Source: Pseudonocardiales bacterium
GTDB taxonomy: Bacteria; Actinomycetota; Actinomycetes; Mycobacteriales; Pseudonocardiaceae
Direction: 5' to 3'
DNA: 64,000 bases
Assembly: GCA_052390495.1 (NCBI GenBank)
Contig: JBQTGW010000240.1
Location: 33,232 to 97,231, forward strand
Both the position numbers and the translations under genes were made by a program. This document shows, piece after piece, positions 33,776 through 36,371 of this stretch (position 1 is the first letter of the stretch; each line of letters opens with the position of its first letter). A model generated the notes under the pieces. It was not told the DNA's origin. It did no database searches and worked only from the letters and a program-made list of their open reading frames with translations.

Positions 33776-34701
33776 CACCGCTGTCAGCGGTACCTCGGCA
33801 TCGTCTGGTTCAGCACGGTGGCCTGGCGAACCACGACGCCCTTCGGCTGTCGCAACTGCGCCGGAGTACAACTGGCTTGTTTCCCGAGATTACCCAAGAG
33901 GGAAGCGAGACGAAAATTTCATTGGTCCAGACCACAGAATTTCTCGACCAGGGAATGGCTAATGCGCTGCGCGATGCGGTAGTCCGGACGCGGCTTCTTC
34001 GCCCCAAAGCTGACATCTCCATTGATCAGTGTCACACTGACCTAGATTCACTCTGTCGTCGTGTTGCGATGATTATTACGTCACGGCCAATCGCGCAGAC
34101 TCGAATCGCTTTTATCGGCGATGATGACCTCGCCTCAGTAGCTCTGCTCCAGATAACGTCACCAGAGCACTTACTTCTGCTGGAAATCGACGAGCGAATT
34201 ATCATCGCAGTCGAGACCATAGCCGCCAACCTTGGCCAACGTGAACAGCTCAGTGTTGAGCGCGTGGATCTGTCATCAGTGGATTCGGCACACGTCTCCA
34301 ATCGGTATGGTGAGAAGTTTGATATCGTGGTGACCGACCCGCCATATGCGACTGATGGAATGCTACGATTTGTCCAGGTCGCGATGGCCCTCACCGCGTA
34401 TACCGGCGAGGTTCACATTGCCGTCCCAGCGCTGCTGGCCGAGGCGTGGACCGACGAACTTCTCCTCGATGTACAAAGACTTCTTACTATGTCGGGATTC
34501 GTCATTGACCGTGTCATTCCTGGAGCGTTCACCTACGAGACGAGTGACGTGGTGTCCTCACTCGTTATCGCTCGACGGCTACCCGGCGGCCCACCAATTT
34601 CGCCAACCGGTTCTACCAGGACGGATCGCTTTTATACGACCCGGATCGCTCCCACCCAAGAAGAGTTAATACTCACCCGCCAAGAAGAGAAGAGTCAGTA
34701 G
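33766..34701 (+). CDS. BpsA/DUF43-family aminopropyltransferase-like protein (branched-chain polyamine synthase-like)
   Basis: IAFIGDDDLASVALL ... LLLEIDERII ... FDIVVTDPPYATDGMLRFV parallels, from memory, the archaeal BpsA core GDDDLTS..DIDERL..FDTFITDPPET. Confidence 0.65.
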   Translation: MLVTPLSAVPRHRLVQHGGLANHDALRLSQLRRSTTGLFPEITQEGSETKISLVQTTEFLDQGMANALRDAVVRTRLLRPKADISIDQCHTDLDSLCRRVAMIITSRPIAQTRIAFIGDDDLASVALLQITSPEHLLLLEIDERIIIAVETIAANLGQREQLSVERVDLSSVDSAHVSNRYGEKFDIVVTDPPYATDGMLRFVQVAMALTAYTGEVHIAVPALLAEAWTDELLLDVQRLLTMSGFVIDRVIPGAFTYETSDVVSSLVIARRLPGGPPISPTGSTRTDRFYTTRIAPTQEELILTRQEEKSQ

Positions 34702-36371
34702 TGTCACCGATCGCCTTCGTCACGTCCAACCCAAGTAAGTTCACTACCGCACGCGAGCACCTATCACCGCTTGGCATCGAGCTAGAGCAGGTCATGCTCA
34801 ATCTCGACGAGATCCAGACCGACTCCGTTGCCTCAGTTGCCTTACATAAAGCCCAGCAAGCTTTTCGGGTACTGCACCGTCCAGTTATCGTTGAGGACAG
34901 CGGCTTCTACATCGACGAGCTCGGTGGCTTCCCAGGCCCGTTCGTCAAATACGTCATCAAAGCGCTCGGCGCCGAGGGTATGGCGCGTGTCGCGGACCTG
35001 ACTACGACTCGACACTGCCATTTCGAGGGTATTCTCGCCTACATCGACGCCCACGGTGTGCCTCGGATCTTCACCGACACCGGTGAAGGCGGAACAGTAG
35101 CGGAGCAGCCAACGGACAACCCCCAGGCCGGTGCTTGGTCGGCATTATGGGACGTCTTCATCCCGACCGGGTGCACTGAACCGCTATCCGCGTTACGCGA
35201 GGATGAGCGCACGCGCATCTTCGATAGCTGGGCAAAGCAATCCGTCTTTGCTCGCTTCGGAGAATGGCTGGCAGGAAAGCTCGGCCAGTATTCAGAACCA
35301 GCCAACGGGACAGACCGTCTGCTGAGCACCCAACTCAACTTCAACTTTCCGACTGAACGCATCGCCGCGCGCCCTCGGACGAAGGGCCAAGATCTACTCC
35401 TGACTCTGGACCGGTCGATTGGCAAAATTGAGCATCGCTACTTTACAGATTTGCCGACGCTGCTGCCTGCGAAGAGCCTCGTAATCGTCAACAACTCGCA
35501 GGTCGTCAAGGCCGCCCTGCGCCGGATACCTAACGACGGCACCTATCTGCATGTTGTTTTACCGTTCGAGACTTCGCTCAGCAACGTCACCTGCCTCTGT
35601 CCATGGAAGCCAGCCGTCGGATCCACAGTAGCTATCAACGGTGGCTGCTTCATGATCGAGAAGATCCCCGAGCCAGGACGCGACCTCCGGACCGGCCGGA
35701 TCATCACGCATGATCCAGATATCACGGACCTGCAAACATTTATGGCTCGGTGTGGCGAGATGCCAATCCCGATCTATGTTAATGCCCAACGCGACCCGGA
35801 CGCCGCCGATGCGGCCGACTACCAGAACGTCTACGCTTCGACACCGGGATCGGTCGCATGTGCCACAGCTGGACTCCATTTCACCGAAGAGCTTCTCGGT
35901 GCCCTAGTGGAACGGGGACACCAGGTCGCCCAGGTTACCCTGCACATCGGCTACGGCACGTGGAAGAGCCTTGCGACCACTTACGTCGATCAGCACATCA
36001 TGGATGCCGAGTACTGTGAGCTACCCGCAGAAACGCTGCAAATGCTACGGGCCGCAAAGCGAGAAGGGCGCCCGGTAGTCGCTGTCGGAACCTCCAGTGT
36101 ACGAACACTTGAAAGCTTTGCAGATGAAATTCTGTCAGACGGCCCGACCGAAACGCTCCAGCGCGCAACCAGCTTGTACATTGCCTCGCCGTTCCACTTC
36201 CGGATTGTCGATCACATGATTACAAACTTTGCCTATCCCCAGACGCCGATTATGGCTCTCACAGCAGCCTTCACTGGCTCGACAGAGCTACTGTTCGACG
36301 CTTACCGTGCGGCAGTGGACCATCCCGACTATCTGTTCTTTTCATACGGTGACGGTATGTTCATTCACTAG
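34701..36371 (+). CDS. fusion protein: HAM1/RdgB-type non-canonical NTP pyrophosphatase (aa 1 to about 190) plus a QueA-like S-adenosylmethionine ribosyltransferase-isomerase (aa about 208 to 556)
   Basis: The HAM1 part is IAFVTSNPSKFTTAREHL..LDEIQTDS..VIVEDSGFYIDELGGFPGPFVKY. The QueA part is FNFPTERIAARPR..LLPAKSLVIVNNSQVVKA..MPIPIYV..YQNVYASTPGSVACATAGLHFT..VTLHIGYGTWKS..VVAVGTSSVRTLES..ITNFAYPQTPIMAL..FFSYGDGMFI. Confidence 0.8.
   Translation: MSPIAFVTSNPSKFTTAREHLSPLGIELEQVMLNLDEIQTDSVASVALHKAQQAFRVLHRPVIVEDSGFYIDELGGFPGPFVKYVIKALGAEGMARVADLTTTRHCHFEGILAYIDAHGVPRIFTDTGEGGTVAEQPTDNPQAGAWSALWDVFIPTGCTEPLSALREDERTRIFDSWAKQSVFARFGEWLAGKLGQYSEPANGTDRLLSTQLNFNFPTERIAARPRTKGQDLLLTLDRSIGKIEHRYFTDLPTLLPAKSLVIVNNSQVVKAALRRIPNDGTYLHVVLPFETSLSNVTCLCPWKPAVGSTVAINGGCFMIEKIPEPGRDLRTGRIITHDPDITDLQTFMARCGEMPIPIYVNAQRDPDAADAADYQNVYASTPGSVACATAGLHFTEELLGALVERGHQVAQVTLHIGYGTWKSLATTYVDQHIMDAEYCELPAETLQMLRAAKREGRPVVAVGTSSVRTLESFADEILSDGPTETLQRATSLYIASPFHFRIVDHMITNFAYPQTPIMALTAAFTGSTELLFDAYRAAVDHPDYLFFSYGDGMFIH

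What the first reader, a model, noticed from the sequence alone, without database searches (positions are those of the whole stretch)
34701..36371. Fusion of a HAM1/ITPase-type NTP pyrophosphatase to a full-length QueA-like SAM ribosyltransferase-isomerase
Canonical QueA is a stand-alone tRNA enzyme that attaches the ribosyl moiety of SAM to the aminomethyl group of preQ1-tRNA. Here a complete QueA-like domain (aa about 208-556, with all the conserved blocks I can recall) is fused behind a HAM1/RdgB domain that acts on free non-canonical (d)NTPs.

No other queuosine genes (tgt, queC/D/E/F/G) are nearby. The fusion suggests the acceptor may be a free nucleotide or an amine-bearing modified base rather than preQ1-tRNA. 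One candidate acceptor is the primary amine that the neighbouring aminopropyltransferase-like enzyme would install.
Basis: partly seen in the sequence, partly recalled or inferred. Interest (0 to 1): 0.7.

Follow-up and report, generated by a model that had tools for sequence, protein, structure and literature searches.

The report
Repurposed QueA fused to nucleotide pyrophosphatase
An enzyme known only for finishing the tRNA base queuosine is here fused to a nucleotide-cleaving domain inside a rare, mobile seven-gene cassette, which most likely builds an undescribed, heavily decorated nucleotide rather than modifying tRNA.

Summary
Window 34701-36371(+) is one 556-aa ORF with an N-terminal HAM1/ITPase domain and a full-length QueA domain. 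The same architecture occurs in about 47 protein clusters from independent assemblies, so it is not a junction error.

It is not ordinary QueA. The fused QueA domains form their own clade (100/100 bootstrap). They score below NCBI's QueA equivalog cut-offs. They uniformly replace about a dozen residues that are near-invariant in stand-alone QueA. The window holds no queuosine genes.

The gene always sits in a horizontally acquired cassette: ASCH, a nuclease-PriS primase fusion, a BpsA-like aminopropyltransferase with a DPPY motif, HAM1-QueA, an adenylate-kinase-like kinase, an L7Ae-domain protein and SAM decarboxylase. Several lineages add an NDK. Three partner families exist almost only in this cassette.

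Best reading, all inferred: a phage-T4-like nucleotide hypermodification line. An NTP is cut to NMP, aminopropylated, capped with a SAM-derived epoxy-cyclopentanediol by the QueA domain, re-phosphorylated and used by the primase. The acceptor is unproven; a polymer or polyamine acceptor remains possible. No paper in the searchable library describes it. A cultured host, Flindersiella endophytica, carries it.

The parts
32358..32750 (+). ASCH-domain protein of the GKER catalytic subtype. The ORF opens at 32301; the likely start is the ATG at 32358 or 32373.
   Evidence: Pfam ASCH, E 1.2e-7. The octapeptide G-I-K-T-L-E-P-R is invariant in 9 orthologues and matches the G-x-K-x-x-E-x-R motif shown to be catalytic for N4-acetylcytidine hydrolysis. 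It co-occurs with the fusion in 12 of 13 related loci.
32747..33775 (+). Fusion of an N-terminal PD-(D/E)xK nuclease-fold domain with a C-terminal PriS-type archaeo-eukaryotic primase catalytic domain that has a zinc knuckle.
   Evidence: Invariant E46/D48/E61/K63; DxD (220-222); SGGRGxH (270-276); RxD...LPGSLH (299-319); C233/C242/C245/C341. AlphaFold pLDDT 81.5. Foldseek hits: PriS 5of3 (1e-6), 1zt2, 1v33, human PRIM1 4lil; N-terminal domain to NucS/EndoMS, AF1548, MspJI. The family has only 46 members in 5.8 billion proteins.
33766..34701 (+). BpsA_C-type aminopropyltransferase-like enzyme. The GDDD motif is kept; the acceptor-site motif is TDPPY instead of BpsA's TDPPE.
   Evidence: Pfam BpsA_C, E 4.5e-23. 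PDB 5xnc BpsA, E 2.4e-10. GDDDL and TDPPY are invariant in 9 orthologues. Roles of GDDD and Glu259 are taken from PMC12979288. The family has only 57 members.
34701..35285 (+). HAM1/ITPase-type NTP pyrophosphatase domain of the fusion (aa 1 to about 195). Catalytic residues are kept; the base pocket is altered.
   Evidence: Pfam Ham1p_like aa 4-173. T8/N10/K13, E37, K50 and E65-D66-S67 are invariant in the fused family. GFGYD is replaced by SALWD and SHR by DSW, with W146/W150/W177 invariant.
35322..36371 (+). QueA-like SAM ribosyltransferase-isomerase domain of the fusion (aa 208-556, stop included), with a remodelled acceptor site.
   Evidence: Pfam Queuosine_synth, full length, E 9.7e-82. 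Below the NCBIfam equivalog cut-offs: 269 against 324, and 234 against 267. About 50 positions are shared with stand-alone QueA. Replaced: R>A272, E>H284, P>I358, R>D373, T>N376, A>C387, F>W421, P>S423, H>D435, H>A511, R>L545. Monophyletic, 100/100.
36403..36972 (+). P-loop kinase related to archaeal-type adenylate kinase; putative NMP kinase. The start is approximate (ORF opens at 36229; orthologues are 188 aa).
   Evidence: Pfam AAA_17, E 2e-11. NCBIfam NF003122 adenylate kinase, E 2.8e-26, below cut-off. Present in 12 of 13 related loci.
36948..37541 (+). Protein with an uncharacterised N-terminal domain of about 90 aa and a C-terminal L7Ae/L30e/eS12-family domain.
   Evidence: Profile of 6 orthologues against PDB: eS12 at 7.6e-6, L7Ae at 1e-3. 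Pfam Ribosomal_L7Ae in 5 of 6 orthologues, best 3.6e-5. In the distant locus L001 a stand-alone 107-aa Pfam L7Ae protein lies in the cassette between the primase and AdoMetDC genes.
37640..38026 (+). Pyruvoyl-type S-adenosylmethionine decarboxylase (class 1b-like); putative source of decarboxylated SAM.
   Evidence: Pfam AdoMet_dc, E 6.8e-19. The ...QSHLVISTWPE... processing-site region is conserved in orthologues. Found in 11 of 13 loci by tblastn, and by Pfam in L001, where tblastn missed it; only L012 gave no match.
38270..38815 (+). Accessory divergent nucleoside-diphosphate kinase (181 aa, with an insertion). It lies inside the low-GC island.
   Evidence: Pfam NDK, E 2.2e-33, matched in two stretches. 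NCBIfam 124 bits, below the 155 cut-off. Linked to the cassette in L088-L090 (89-90% identity) and in Flindersiella L091 (57%).
38815..39480 (+). Accessory 221-aa protein of unknown function, with only a very weak Bud32/kinase-like hint.
   Evidence: No Pfam hit even at E of 1 or less. NCBIfam Bud32 at 0.0026 only. Present next to NDK in L088/L089 (73% identity).

Best explanation
The HAM1-QueA protein is one enzyme of a horizontally mobile seven-gene cassette, with NDK as a frequent eighth gene. The cassette most likely makes a hypermodified nucleotide at the free-nucleotide level and hands it to its own primase. The logic resembles the phage T4 hydroxymethyl-dCTP line, in which an NTP is cut to NMP, modified, re-phosphorylated and polymerised.

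Proposed steps, all inferred from family chemistry and gene linkage:
1. The SAM decarboxylase makes decarboxylated SAM.
2. The BpsA-like transferase keeps the GDDD motif that positions the aminopropyl group. Its acceptor-site Glu is replaced, giving a DPPY motif typical of enzymes that alkylate exocyclic nucleobase amines. It would put a 3-aminopropyl group on a base nitrogen of a nucleotide.
3. The HAM1 domain is catalytically intact but has a Trp-lined base pocket. It would convert the (modified) NTP to NMP plus pyrophosphate, delivering or selecting the substrate.
4. The fused QueA domain would use a second SAM as ribosyl donor, as QueA does on the aminomethyl group of preQ1. It would build a 2,3-epoxy-4,5-dihydroxycyclopentyl ring on the terminal primary amine, releasing adenine and methionine.
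5. The adenylate-kinase-like kinase, with NDK (cassette-encoded or host), would restore the triphosphate.
6. The nuclease-PriS primase would incorporate it into an oligonucleotide. The ASCH and L7Ae-like proteins would bind, edit or regulate the nucleic-acid product.

The biological role is unknown. Conflict, defence or self-marking of a mobile element are the candidates suggested by the genomic settings.
For: Shown:
- The fusion is real and recurrent.
- The QueA half keeps about 50 core positions, including TAGLH, VGT..RTLE, TNF and GD. It replaces at least 12 residues that are near-invariant in stand-alone QueA and forms a separate clade (100/100).
- The HAM1 half keeps the catalytic Asp and the metal- and phosphate-binding residues, but the base-recognition motifs are changed. 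This is the reverse of the catalytically dead sensor KomB.
- Synteny is strict across 46-100% identity and several phyla: ASCH, nuclease-PriS, BpsA-like, fusion, kinase, L7Ae-like and AdoMetDC. Start and stop codons overlap in the window.
- The primase, BpsA-like and fusion families are each about 46-57 clusters in 5.8 billion proteins, so they look dedicated to each other.
- GDDD and DPPY are invariant; the role of GDDD is published.
- NDK has been recruited in at least two sub-lineages.
- The PriS motifs and fold are intact.
- A related HAM1 subtype sits in another nucleotide-tailoring cluster: ThyA-like, carbamoyltransferase, methyltransferase, and a kinase/deaminase/HAM1 fusion.
- There are no queuosine genes in the window. 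Most Actinomycetota lack QueA (PMC11130926).
- Unfused members of the same QueA lineage lie in a small-molecule context: a ComB-type phosphatase and a GFO/IDH/MocA dehydrogenase.
Against: - No substrate, product or activity is known for any component. Every step and its order are inferred.
- DPPY is a motif-level analogy, not proof that a nucleobase is the acceptor. The base cannot be named: the adenylate-kinase and HAM1 affinities hint at adenine N6, while ASCH biochemistry hints at cytosine N4.
- Cutting an NTP to an NMP only to re-phosphorylate it is plausible by the T4 precedent, but it is not demonstrated here.
- The presence of L7Ae, ASCH and a nuclease domain fits polymer-level action just as well.
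- The fused clade also gains conserved arginines (R206, R220, R224, R226, R274, R364). The net-charge difference from stand-alone QueA is small. A polyanionic acceptor is therefore not excluded.
- Locus L090 lacks the ASCH and primase genes, so polymerisation may not be obligatory.
- No effector, transporter or immunity gene is evident, so the purpose of the product is unexplained.
Confidence: 0.45

Rival explanations
1. Polymer-level modification. The aminopropyl group and then the cyclopentyl group are added to a base already in RNA or DNA, as canonical QueA acts on tRNA and as Dpd-type systems act on DNA. The L7Ae-like, ASCH and nuclease-primase proteins would provide nucleic-acid targeting. 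The HAM1 domain would only sanitise the nucleotide pool of modified NTPs released by turnover.
For: - Canonical QueA works on a polymer.
- L7Ae-family domains bind structured RNA (established knowledge of the family), and one is present here.
- ASCH proteins act on modified cytidine in tRNA.
- DPPY enzymes usually act on bases in polymers (established knowledge of amino-methyltransferase motif IV).
- The fused clade gains conserved arginines.
- The primase carries a PD-(D/E)xK nuclease domain.
Against: - The cassette includes an NMP-type kinase, often with NDK. Those enzymes make sense for building an NTP, not for sanitising the pool.
- HAM1 is physically fused to the QueA domain, which suggests substrate hand-over between them.
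- There is no transglycosylase and no obvious RNA gene: Rfam gives no hit in the window.
- Unfused relatives of this QueA lineage sit in small-molecule contexts.
Confidence: 0.25
2. Polyamine or aminocyclitol small-molecule pathway. AdoMetDC plus the BpsA-like enzyme make or extend a polyamine. The QueA domain caps its primary amine with an epoxy-cyclopentanediol, giving a reactive aminocyclitol-polyamine such as a nucleic-acid-binding toxin or metabolite. The nucleotide enzymes would be accessory.
For: - BpsA is the closest solved relative of the transferase, and GDDD is kept.
- AdoMetDC with an aminopropyltransferase is the classic polyamine pair.
- Unfused relatives of this QueA lineage lie next to a phosphatase and a sugar/cyclitol-type dehydrogenase.
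- Basic residues at the QueA acceptor-site positions are replaced by acidic ones (R>D373, H>D435), which would suit a cationic acceptor.
Against: - It does not explain the obligatory fusion to a catalytically intact NTP pyrophosphatase whose base pocket has been remodelled.
- It does not explain the conserved kinase, NDK, PriS primase, ASCH and L7Ae genes.
- BpsA's acceptor-site Glu259 is lost in favour of a nucleobase-type DPPY motif.
- The core cassette has no exporter.
Confidence: 0.15
3. Nucleotide-signal defence system in the manner of Kongming. The HAM1 domain senses a non-canonical nucleotide produced on phage infection and switches on the attached QueA-like domain or its partner enzymes.
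For: - The HAM1 half resembles KomB (E 5.5e-15).
- The cassette lies in mobile or variable regions near IS elements, integrases, TIR/STAND and HEPN genes.
Against: - Defensive HAM1s invariably carry His in place of the catalytic Asp and keep the standard base pocket. This protein does the opposite.
- There is no SIR2/KomC or other recognisable effector in the cassette.
- The fusion has no PADLOC match.
Confidence: 0.07
4. Ordinary housekeeping. A normal tRNA QueA that happens to be fused to a normal RdgB-type ITP/XTP house-cleaning enzyme.
For: - Both domains are full length and fold like their families.
- Public annotation calls these proteins QueA or non-canonical purine NTP pyrophosphatase.
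Against: - Both halves score below the equivalog cut-offs.
- A separate clade with at least 12 family-invariant residues replaced.
- The ITP/XTP recognition motifs are lost.
- No tgt or que genes in 64 kb.
- Found in only 5 of about 185,000 species representatives, on a low-GC island.
- Always embedded in the same non-queuosine cassette.
- Most Actinomycetota lack QueA.
Confidence: 0.03

Closest known systems
QueA, tRNA preQ1(34) S-adenosylmethionine ribosyltransferase-isomerase (PF02547; structures 1vky, 1yy3, 1wdi)
   Same: Full-length two-subdomain QueA fold. About 50 conserved core positions are retained, including TAGLH, VGT..RTLE, TNF and the C-terminal GD. It therefore very probably keeps the SAM-ribosyl transfer and isomerisation chemistry onto a primary amine.
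   Different: Fused to HAM1. Only 31-38% identical to stand-alone QueAs. Forms a separate clade. At least 12 residues near-invariant in stand-alone QueA are replaced (R272A, E284H, R373D, T376N, F421W, P423S, H435D, H511A, R545L and others). It carries clade-specific insertions. There is no queuosine pathway around it, and it sits in a different, dedicated operon.
HAM1/RdgB/ITPA non-canonical purine NTP pyrophosphatases (Mj0226, PH1917, human ITPA)
   Same: Same fold (TM 0.87 to 1b78). The TxNxxK, E-x-Q, Lys and E-D-S catalytic and metal-binding motifs are retained.
   Different: The base-recognition elements are changed: GFGYD to SALWD, and SHR to DSW, giving three invariant Trp residues. ITP/XTP specificity is therefore unlikely. 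It is covalently joined to a SAM enzyme.
Phage T4-type pre-replicative nucleotide hypermodification (dCTPase, dCMP hydroxymethylase, dNMP kinase, NDK, polymerase)
   Same: The same set of enzyme roles in one gene cluster: an NTP pyrophosphatase, base-tailoring enzymes, an NMP-type kinase, NDK and a polymerase. This is a comparison of logic only, drawn from established knowledge of T4.
   Different: None of the enzymes is homologous to the T4 ones. The tailoring chemistry is different (aminopropyl from decarboxylated SAM, plus a SAM-derived cyclopentyl group). The cassette is chromosomal, not phage-borne: no hits in IMG/VR, phage or plasmid collections. The polymerase is a PriS-type primase.
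BpsA, branched-chain polyamine synthase (PF01861; 5xnc)
   Same: It is the closest solved relative of the neighbouring transferase. The GDDD motif that positions the aminopropyl group of decarboxylated SAM is invariant. The enzyme is paired with a SAM decarboxylase.
   Different: The acceptor-site Glu259 (TDPPE) is replaced, giving TDPPY. The N-terminal region differs. The family is confined to this cassette.
Kongming KomB, the HAM1-like dITP sensor
   Same: A HAM1 domain recruited into a mobile, non-housekeeping system; similar sequence and fold.
   Different: KomB is catalytically dead (Asp to His) with an intact base pocket, and it partners with a SIR2 effector. Here the catalytic residues are intact, the pocket is changed, and there is no SIR2.

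Membership tests
QueA (tRNA preQ1(34) SAM ribosyltransferase-isomerase) | Full-length Queuosine_synth (PF02547) domain and QueA fold | tested here: met
   Pfam E 9.7e-82, profile positions 3-322 of 322. Foldseek 1vky at 1e-21.
QueA (tRNA preQ1(34) SAM ribosyltransferase-isomerase) | Score above the curated equivalog cut-off (NCBIfam NF001140, TIGR00113) | tested here: not met
   269.4 bits against a cut-off of 324; 234.3 against 267.45.
QueA (tRNA preQ1(34) SAM ribosyltransferase-isomerase) | Retention of residues near-invariant in stand-alone QueAs | tested here: not met
   About 50 are kept. But R272, E284, P358, R373, T376, A387, F421, P423, H435, H511, S515/T516 and R545 (stand-alone consensus, window numbering) are uniformly replaced in 42 fused sequences compared with 67 stand-alone ones.
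QueA (tRNA preQ1(34) SAM ribosyltransferase-isomerase) | Groups within the stand-alone QueA radiation | tested here: not met
   The fused domains are monophyletic, 100/100 NJ bootstrap. Caveat: the outgroup was the 67 stand-alone sequences most similar to the query.
QueA (tRNA preQ1(34) SAM ribosyltransferase-isomerase) | Genomic association with the queuosine pathway (tgt, queC/D/E/F, queG/H) | tested here: not met
   None in the 64-kb window or in the 10-kb flanks of 13 related loci. The rest of the genome could not be searched.
QueA (tRNA preQ1(34) SAM ribosyltransferase-isomerase) | Converts preQ1-tRNA to epoxyqueuosine-tRNA | not testable with these tools
   Needs an enzyme assay or complementation of a queA mutant.
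HAM1/RdgB/ITPase | Ham1p_like domain and fold | tested here: met
   Pfam E 2.4e-20. TM 0.87 to 1b78.
HAM1/RdgB/ITPase | Catalytic Asp and the Lys/Glu phosphate- and metal-binding ligands | tested here: met
   T8, N10, K13, E37, K50 and E65-D66-S67 are invariant in the fused family.
HAM1/RdgB/ITPase | Hypoxanthine/xanthine recognition motifs (GFGYD loop, C-terminal SHR) and the equivalog score | tested here: not met
   SALWD and DSW stand in their place. NF011396 scores 110 bits against a cut-off of 203.
Kongming-type defensive HAM1 (KomB) | Catalytic Asp replaced by His; partnered with the SIR2 protein KomC | tested here: not met
   VEDSG is retained. The criterion comes from the Kongming preprint. 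No SIR2 is present in any locus.
BpsA aminopropyltransferase (neighbouring gene) | GDDD motif that positions the aminopropyl group of decarboxylated SAM | tested here: met
   GDDDL is invariant in 9 orthologues. Its role is taken from PMC12979288.
BpsA aminopropyltransferase (neighbouring gene) | Polyamine acceptor site including Glu259 (TDPPE) | tested here: not met
   TDPPY is invariant. The other acceptor residues (Asp225, Tyr290, Tyr316) were not mapped.
Archaeo-eukaryotic primase, PriS type (neighbouring gene) | Motifs I (DxD), II (sGxGxH) and III (hD..., pGS.H), the Zn knuckle and the PriS fold | tested here: met
   Invariant columns. Foldseek 5of3, 1zt2, 1v33 and 4lil.
ASCH amidohydrolases, GKER subgroup (neighbouring gene) | Catalytic octapeptide G-x-K-x-x-E-x-R | tested here: met
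   GIKTLEPR is invariant. The motif definition comes from bioRxiv 10.64898/2026.02.27.708502. Activity is untested.
Known anti-phage defence systems (PADLOC-DB v2) | Match of the cassette proteins to a catalogued system | tested here: not met
   No hit for the fusion, primase, ASCH, L7Ae-like protein, AdoMetDC or NDK. Only weak hits for the kinase (VakA, 8.7e-7) and the transferase (mad2, 4.9e-5).

The most novel reading that the evidence does not exclude
The cassette encodes a previously unknown nucleotide chemistry. A nucleobase would carry a 3-aminopropyl arm capped by a SAM-derived epoxy-cyclopentanediol, a queuosine-like side chain on a non-deazaguanine base. It would be made on free nucleotides and polymerised by a dedicated PriS-type primase into a hypermodified oligonucleotide, which would serve in genetic conflict or as a mobile-element mark. 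This would be the first QueA-family enzyme shown to act outside tRNA, and the first use of decarboxylated SAM to aminopropylate a nucleotide.
Probability: 0.3. Interest if true: 0.9.

Novelty: new variant of a known kind. Interest (0 to 1): 0.78.

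Why it matters
QueA catalyses one of the oddest reactions in nucleic-acid biochemistry: the ribose of SAM is transferred and rearranged into a cyclopentane ring. To my knowledge, and in the papers I could search, it has only ever been tied to tRNA queuosine.

A distinct QueA lineage is described here. It has a remodelled acceptor site, is welded to a nucleotide pyrophosphatase, and is locked into an operon with decarboxylated-SAM aminopropyl chemistry, nucleotide kinases and a private primase. 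This implies the chemistry has been reused for something else, most likely a new hypermodified nucleotide or oligonucleotide.

If confirmed, it would:
- add a new class of natural nucleobase modification;
- add a new use for decarboxylated SAM;
- provide a new enzyme set for making amine- and epoxide-functionalised nucleotides;
- possibly reveal a new conflict or marking system in Actinomycetota.

It is directly testable, because a cultured strain (Flindersiella endophytica) carries the complete cassette.

Tried and rejected
- **Sequencing or assembly error at the domain junction.** Rejected. It is a single ORF, and the same architecture occurs in about 47 clusters from independent assemblies.
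- **Known defence system.** PADLOC gave no match for the fusion or for most partners.
- **Phage or plasmid origin.** IMG/VR, the GenBank phage collection and PLSDB contain only ordinary QueA-length matches at 31-35% identity. PHROG 28663 hits only the QueA part.
- **Literature.** Seven full-text searches combining QueA, HAM1, BpsA, ASCH, L7Ae, primase, aminopropyl and defence terms found no description of the fusion or the cassette. The hit in the P. syringae pv. tagetis paper was only a canonical queA flanking gene.
- **Structured RNA partner for the L7Ae-like protein.** Rfam at gathering thresholds found nothing in the window. I did not do a de novo search for a K-turn RNA.
- **Net-charge argument that the acceptor is not a polyanion.** The difference is small (-5.8 against -3.1), phylogenetically confounded, and offset by arginines gained in the fused clade. 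I do not rely on it.
- **Sequence search of PDB for ASCH relatives.** It gave only chance-level hits, so the ASCH assignment rests on Pfam and the catalytic octapeptide.
- **The upstream 486-aa protein (30414-31874) as a core component.** Rejected. It recurs only in L004, with a remnant in L090.
- **tRNA-gene integration site.** The only ARAGORN call (16738-16825) is far from the island and lies inside an ORF.
- **Context of the second unfused QueA-like protein (P0226).** It could not be retrieved.

Full report
**1. Observation**

Window 34701-36371 (+) is one uninterrupted ORF of 556 aa.
- Pfam places a Ham1p_like domain at aa 4-173 (E 2.4e-20).
- It places a Queuosine_synth domain at aa 211-555, covering the whole profile (E 9.7e-82).
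- Sequence matches to solved structures agree: QueA from T. maritima, B. subtilis and T. thermophilus, and HAM1 enzymes Mj0226 and PH1917.
- An AlphaFold model built on 23 homologues (mean pLDDT 83.8) matches the same folds. The linker at aa 190-210 is lower-confidence.

The fusion is not an artefact. About 47 clusters at 90% identity, 553-563 aa long, carry both domains. They span 45-100% identity and come from independent NCBI, JGI, ENA and Logan assemblies of Pseudonocardiaceae, Egibacteraceae, Nitrospiraceae and Clostridiales MAGs.

**2. It is not an ordinary QueA**

- Both halves score below NCBI's equivalog cut-offs: QueA 269 against 324 bits, XTP/dITP diphosphatase 110 against 203.
- I aligned 42 fused sequences with the 67 most similar stand-alone QueAs. 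About 50 positions are conserved in both groups, among them TAGLH, VGT..RTLE, TNF and the C-terminal GD.
- Residues that are 85-100% conserved in stand-alone QueA are uniformly different in the fused clade: R>A272, E>H284, P>I358, R>D373, T>N376, A>C387, F>W421, P>S423, H>D435, H>A511 (TNFHLP becomes TNFAYP), S/T>T515/P516 and R>L545. There are also clade-specific insertions.
- The fused QueA domains are monophyletic in 100 of 100 NJ bootstrap replicates.
- An exhaustive HMMER scan of 1.84 billion representatives found two unfused QueA-like proteins, P0225 and P0226 (42-45% identity), that share most of these substitutions.
- P0225 lies between a ComB-type phosphatase and a GFO/IDH/MocA sugar/cyclitol-type dehydrogenase, which is a small-molecule setting.
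- The 64-kb window contains no tgt, queC/D/E/F/G/H or related family. Most Actinomycetota are reported to lack QueA (PMC11130926).

I read this as retained SAM-ribosyl chemistry with a changed acceptor. The retention of chemistry is inferred from the conserved core.

**3. The HAM1 half**

- The catalytic and phosphate- or metal-binding residues are invariant in the family: T8/N10/K13, E37, K50 and E65-D66-S67.
- The two elements that recognise hypoxanthine or xanthine in characterised enzymes are replaced. The GFGYD loop becomes SALWD, and the C-terminal SHR becomes DSW. This leaves three invariant tryptophans.
- This is the mirror image of the Kongming sensor KomB, which has lost the catalytic Asp but keeps the pocket.
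- The domain therefore looks like an active NTP pyrophosphatase for a different base.
- Close relatives of this HAM1 subtype are fused to MazG or NUDIX domains, or to a kinase plus a deaminase. The latter sits in a cluster with a ThyA-like enzyme, a carbamoyltransferase and a methyltransferase. The subtype is thus a recurrent module of nucleotide-tailoring pathways.

**4. The gene neighbourhood is the main finding**

The ORF lies on a low-GC island (about 54-59% against 65-70%), running roughly from 32200 to 39700, next to an IS66-family transposase.

Same-strand genes with overlapping starts and stops encode:
- an ASCH protein;
- a 342-aa protein;
- a BpsA_C-type transferase;
- the fusion;
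- an archaeal-adenylate-kinase-like P-loop kinase;
- a 197-aa protein;
- a SAM decarboxylase;
- a divergent NDK;
- a 221-aa protein of unknown function.

Across 13 related loci, down to 46% identity and with a different gene order in L001, the first seven genes travel together. Three loci are incomplete: L090 lacks ASCH and the primase, L092 lacks the kinase and the L7Ae-like gene, and L012 gave no AdoMetDC match. NDK joins in at least two sub-lineages.

The partners in more detail:
- **The 342-aa protein** has an N-terminal PD-(D/E)xK nuclease fold and a C-terminal PriS-type primase with all three catalytic motifs and a zinc knuckle. Evidence is the alignment A1, an AlphaFold model at pLDDT 81.5, and Foldseek hits to S. 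solfataricus and P. horikoshii PriS, human PRIM1, and NucS/EndoMS.
- **The 197-aa protein** ends in an L7Ae/eS12-family domain. L001 has a stand-alone L7Ae protein in the cassette.
- **The ASCH protein** has the complete G-x-K-x-x-E-x-R catalytic octapeptide of the subgroup shown to hydrolyse N4-acetylcytidine, both free and in tRNA.
- **The BpsA-like enzyme** keeps the GDDD motif that positions the aminopropyl group of decarboxylated SAM. It replaces BpsA's acceptor-site Glu259 (TDPPE) with Tyr, giving an invariant DPPY. From general knowledge of amino-methyltransferases, (D/N)PPY marks enzymes that alkylate exocyclic nitrogens of nucleobases. That link is an inference.

The primase, transferase and fusion families each have only about 46-57 clusters among 5.8 billion proteins. 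They appear dedicated to one another.

**5. Mechanism proposed**

The enzyme roles match the phage T4 strategy for making a modified triphosphate: a pyrophosphatase, base-tailoring enzymes, an NMP kinase, NDK and a polymerase. My preferred model, with every step inferred, is as follows.
1. AdoMetDC supplies decarboxylated SAM.
2. The DPPY-type BpsA-like enzyme aminopropylates a base nitrogen of a nucleotide.
3. The HAM1 domain converts the (modified) NTP to NMP.
4. The fused QueA domain builds an epoxy-dihydroxy-cyclopentyl ring from a second SAM on the new primary amine, as QueA does on the aminomethyl group of preQ1 (reaction as summarised in PMC5699537).
5. The kinase and NDK regenerate the triphosphate.
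6. The nuclease-PriS enzyme polymerises it.
7. ASCH and the L7Ae-like protein handle or regulate the product.

I put this at 0.45. The narrower claim, that this is a dedicated non-tRNA QueA working with the aminopropyl enzymes, I put at about 0.9.

**6. Rivals**

- **Polymer-level modification of RNA or DNA (0.25).** It is favoured by the L7Ae, ASCH and nuclease modules and by arginines gained in the fused clade. It is disfavoured by the kinases and by the fusion to HAM1.
- **A polyamine or aminocyclitol metabolite (0.15).** It is favoured by the BpsA/AdoMetDC pair and the context of P0225. It leaves most of the cassette unexplained.
- **A Kongming-like sensor (0.07).** It is contradicted by the intact catalytic Asp and the absence of an effector.
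- **Ordinary QueA plus RdgB (0.03).** It is contradicted on nearly every test.

My attempt to use net charge to exclude a polyanionic acceptor was inconclusive.

**7. Novelty**

- Seven full-text searches found no description of the fusion or the cassette.
- PADLOC does not contain it.
- It is absent from the phage, viral-contig and plasmid collections.
- Only 5 of about 185,000 species representatives carry it.
- The library misses most subscription-journal papers, so a prior comparative-genomics mention cannot be excluded.

I classify it as a new variant of a known kind, a neofunctionalised QueA lineage. There is a realistic chance that the whole cassette is a new kind of nucleotide-modification system.

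A cultured carrier, Flindersiella endophytica, has the complete cassette, including NDK and an Amidohydro_3 gene. That makes the mass-spectrometry and enzyme tests listed under next steps feasible.

Noticed in passing
window 32117-32191: A perfect 25-bp tandem duplication (GCCTGCAAGACTGGCGACGCTGGCT, twice) followed by an inverted partial copy (CGTCGCCAGTCCTG). It lies exactly at the left GC-content border of the island, about 150-200 bp upstream of the ASCH gene. It could be an operator or an insertion scar.
   Followed up: no
window 39480-40396: A methyltransferase is split over two reading frames. A PCMT-type N-terminal half is at 39480-40097. The C-terminal half, matching the ATP-grasp-peptide-maturase methyltransferase family, is in the frame of 39488-40396. 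This is a frameshifted pseudogene or a sequencing error, at the right border of the island.
   Followed up: partly
window 8435-10861 (-): The recA gene is interrupted by an intein with a LAGLIDADG homing-endonuclease domain. recX lies immediately downstream at 7863-8462.
   Followed up: no
L090 (JBOHHC010000253.1) about 1455-8476: In this relative the cassette lacks the ASCH and primase genes. It sits between folC-DUF4233 and the NDK gene. From memory, folC-DUF4233-ndk is a housekeeping arrangement in actinomycetes, so the cassette-linked NDK may derive from, or have replaced, the host ndk.
   Followed up: partly
L006 (JGI Ga0683616_0011369) 549-8755: A different nucleotide-tailoring cluster built around the same HAM1 subtype: ThyA-like, carbamoyltransferase, two unknown proteins, a methyltransferase, an APH-kinase/dCMP-deaminase/HAM1 triple fusion, and an MFS transporter. 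It looks like a modified-pyrimidine nucleoside pathway.
   Followed up: no
L094-L096, e.g. L094 757-3908: An unfused member of the non-canonical QueA lineage (P0225) is flanked by a ComB-type 2-phosphosulfolactate phosphatase and a GFO/IDH/MocA oxidoreductase, next to a TnpB-like gene. It may be a second, unrelated use of QueA-type chemistry on a small molecule.
   Followed up: partly
L002 5585-7240 and L091 6408-8120: An Amidohydro_3-family protein of about 550-570 aa directly precedes AdoMetDC in two cassette variants, including the one in Flindersiella endophytica. It may be an additional tailoring or deaminating step in that sub-lineage.
   Followed up: no
window 52072-59739 (-): A single-module type I polyketide synthase of 2556 aa (KS-AT-DH-MT-ER-KR-ACP) next to an ABC transporter. 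It is unrelated to the finding.
   Followed up: no
window 16738-16825 (-): ARAGORN calls an 88-nt tRNA-Arg(gcg) that lies inside a well-supported methyltransferase ORF (Methyltransf_19, 16019-16942, + strand). It is probably a false positive.
   Followed up: no
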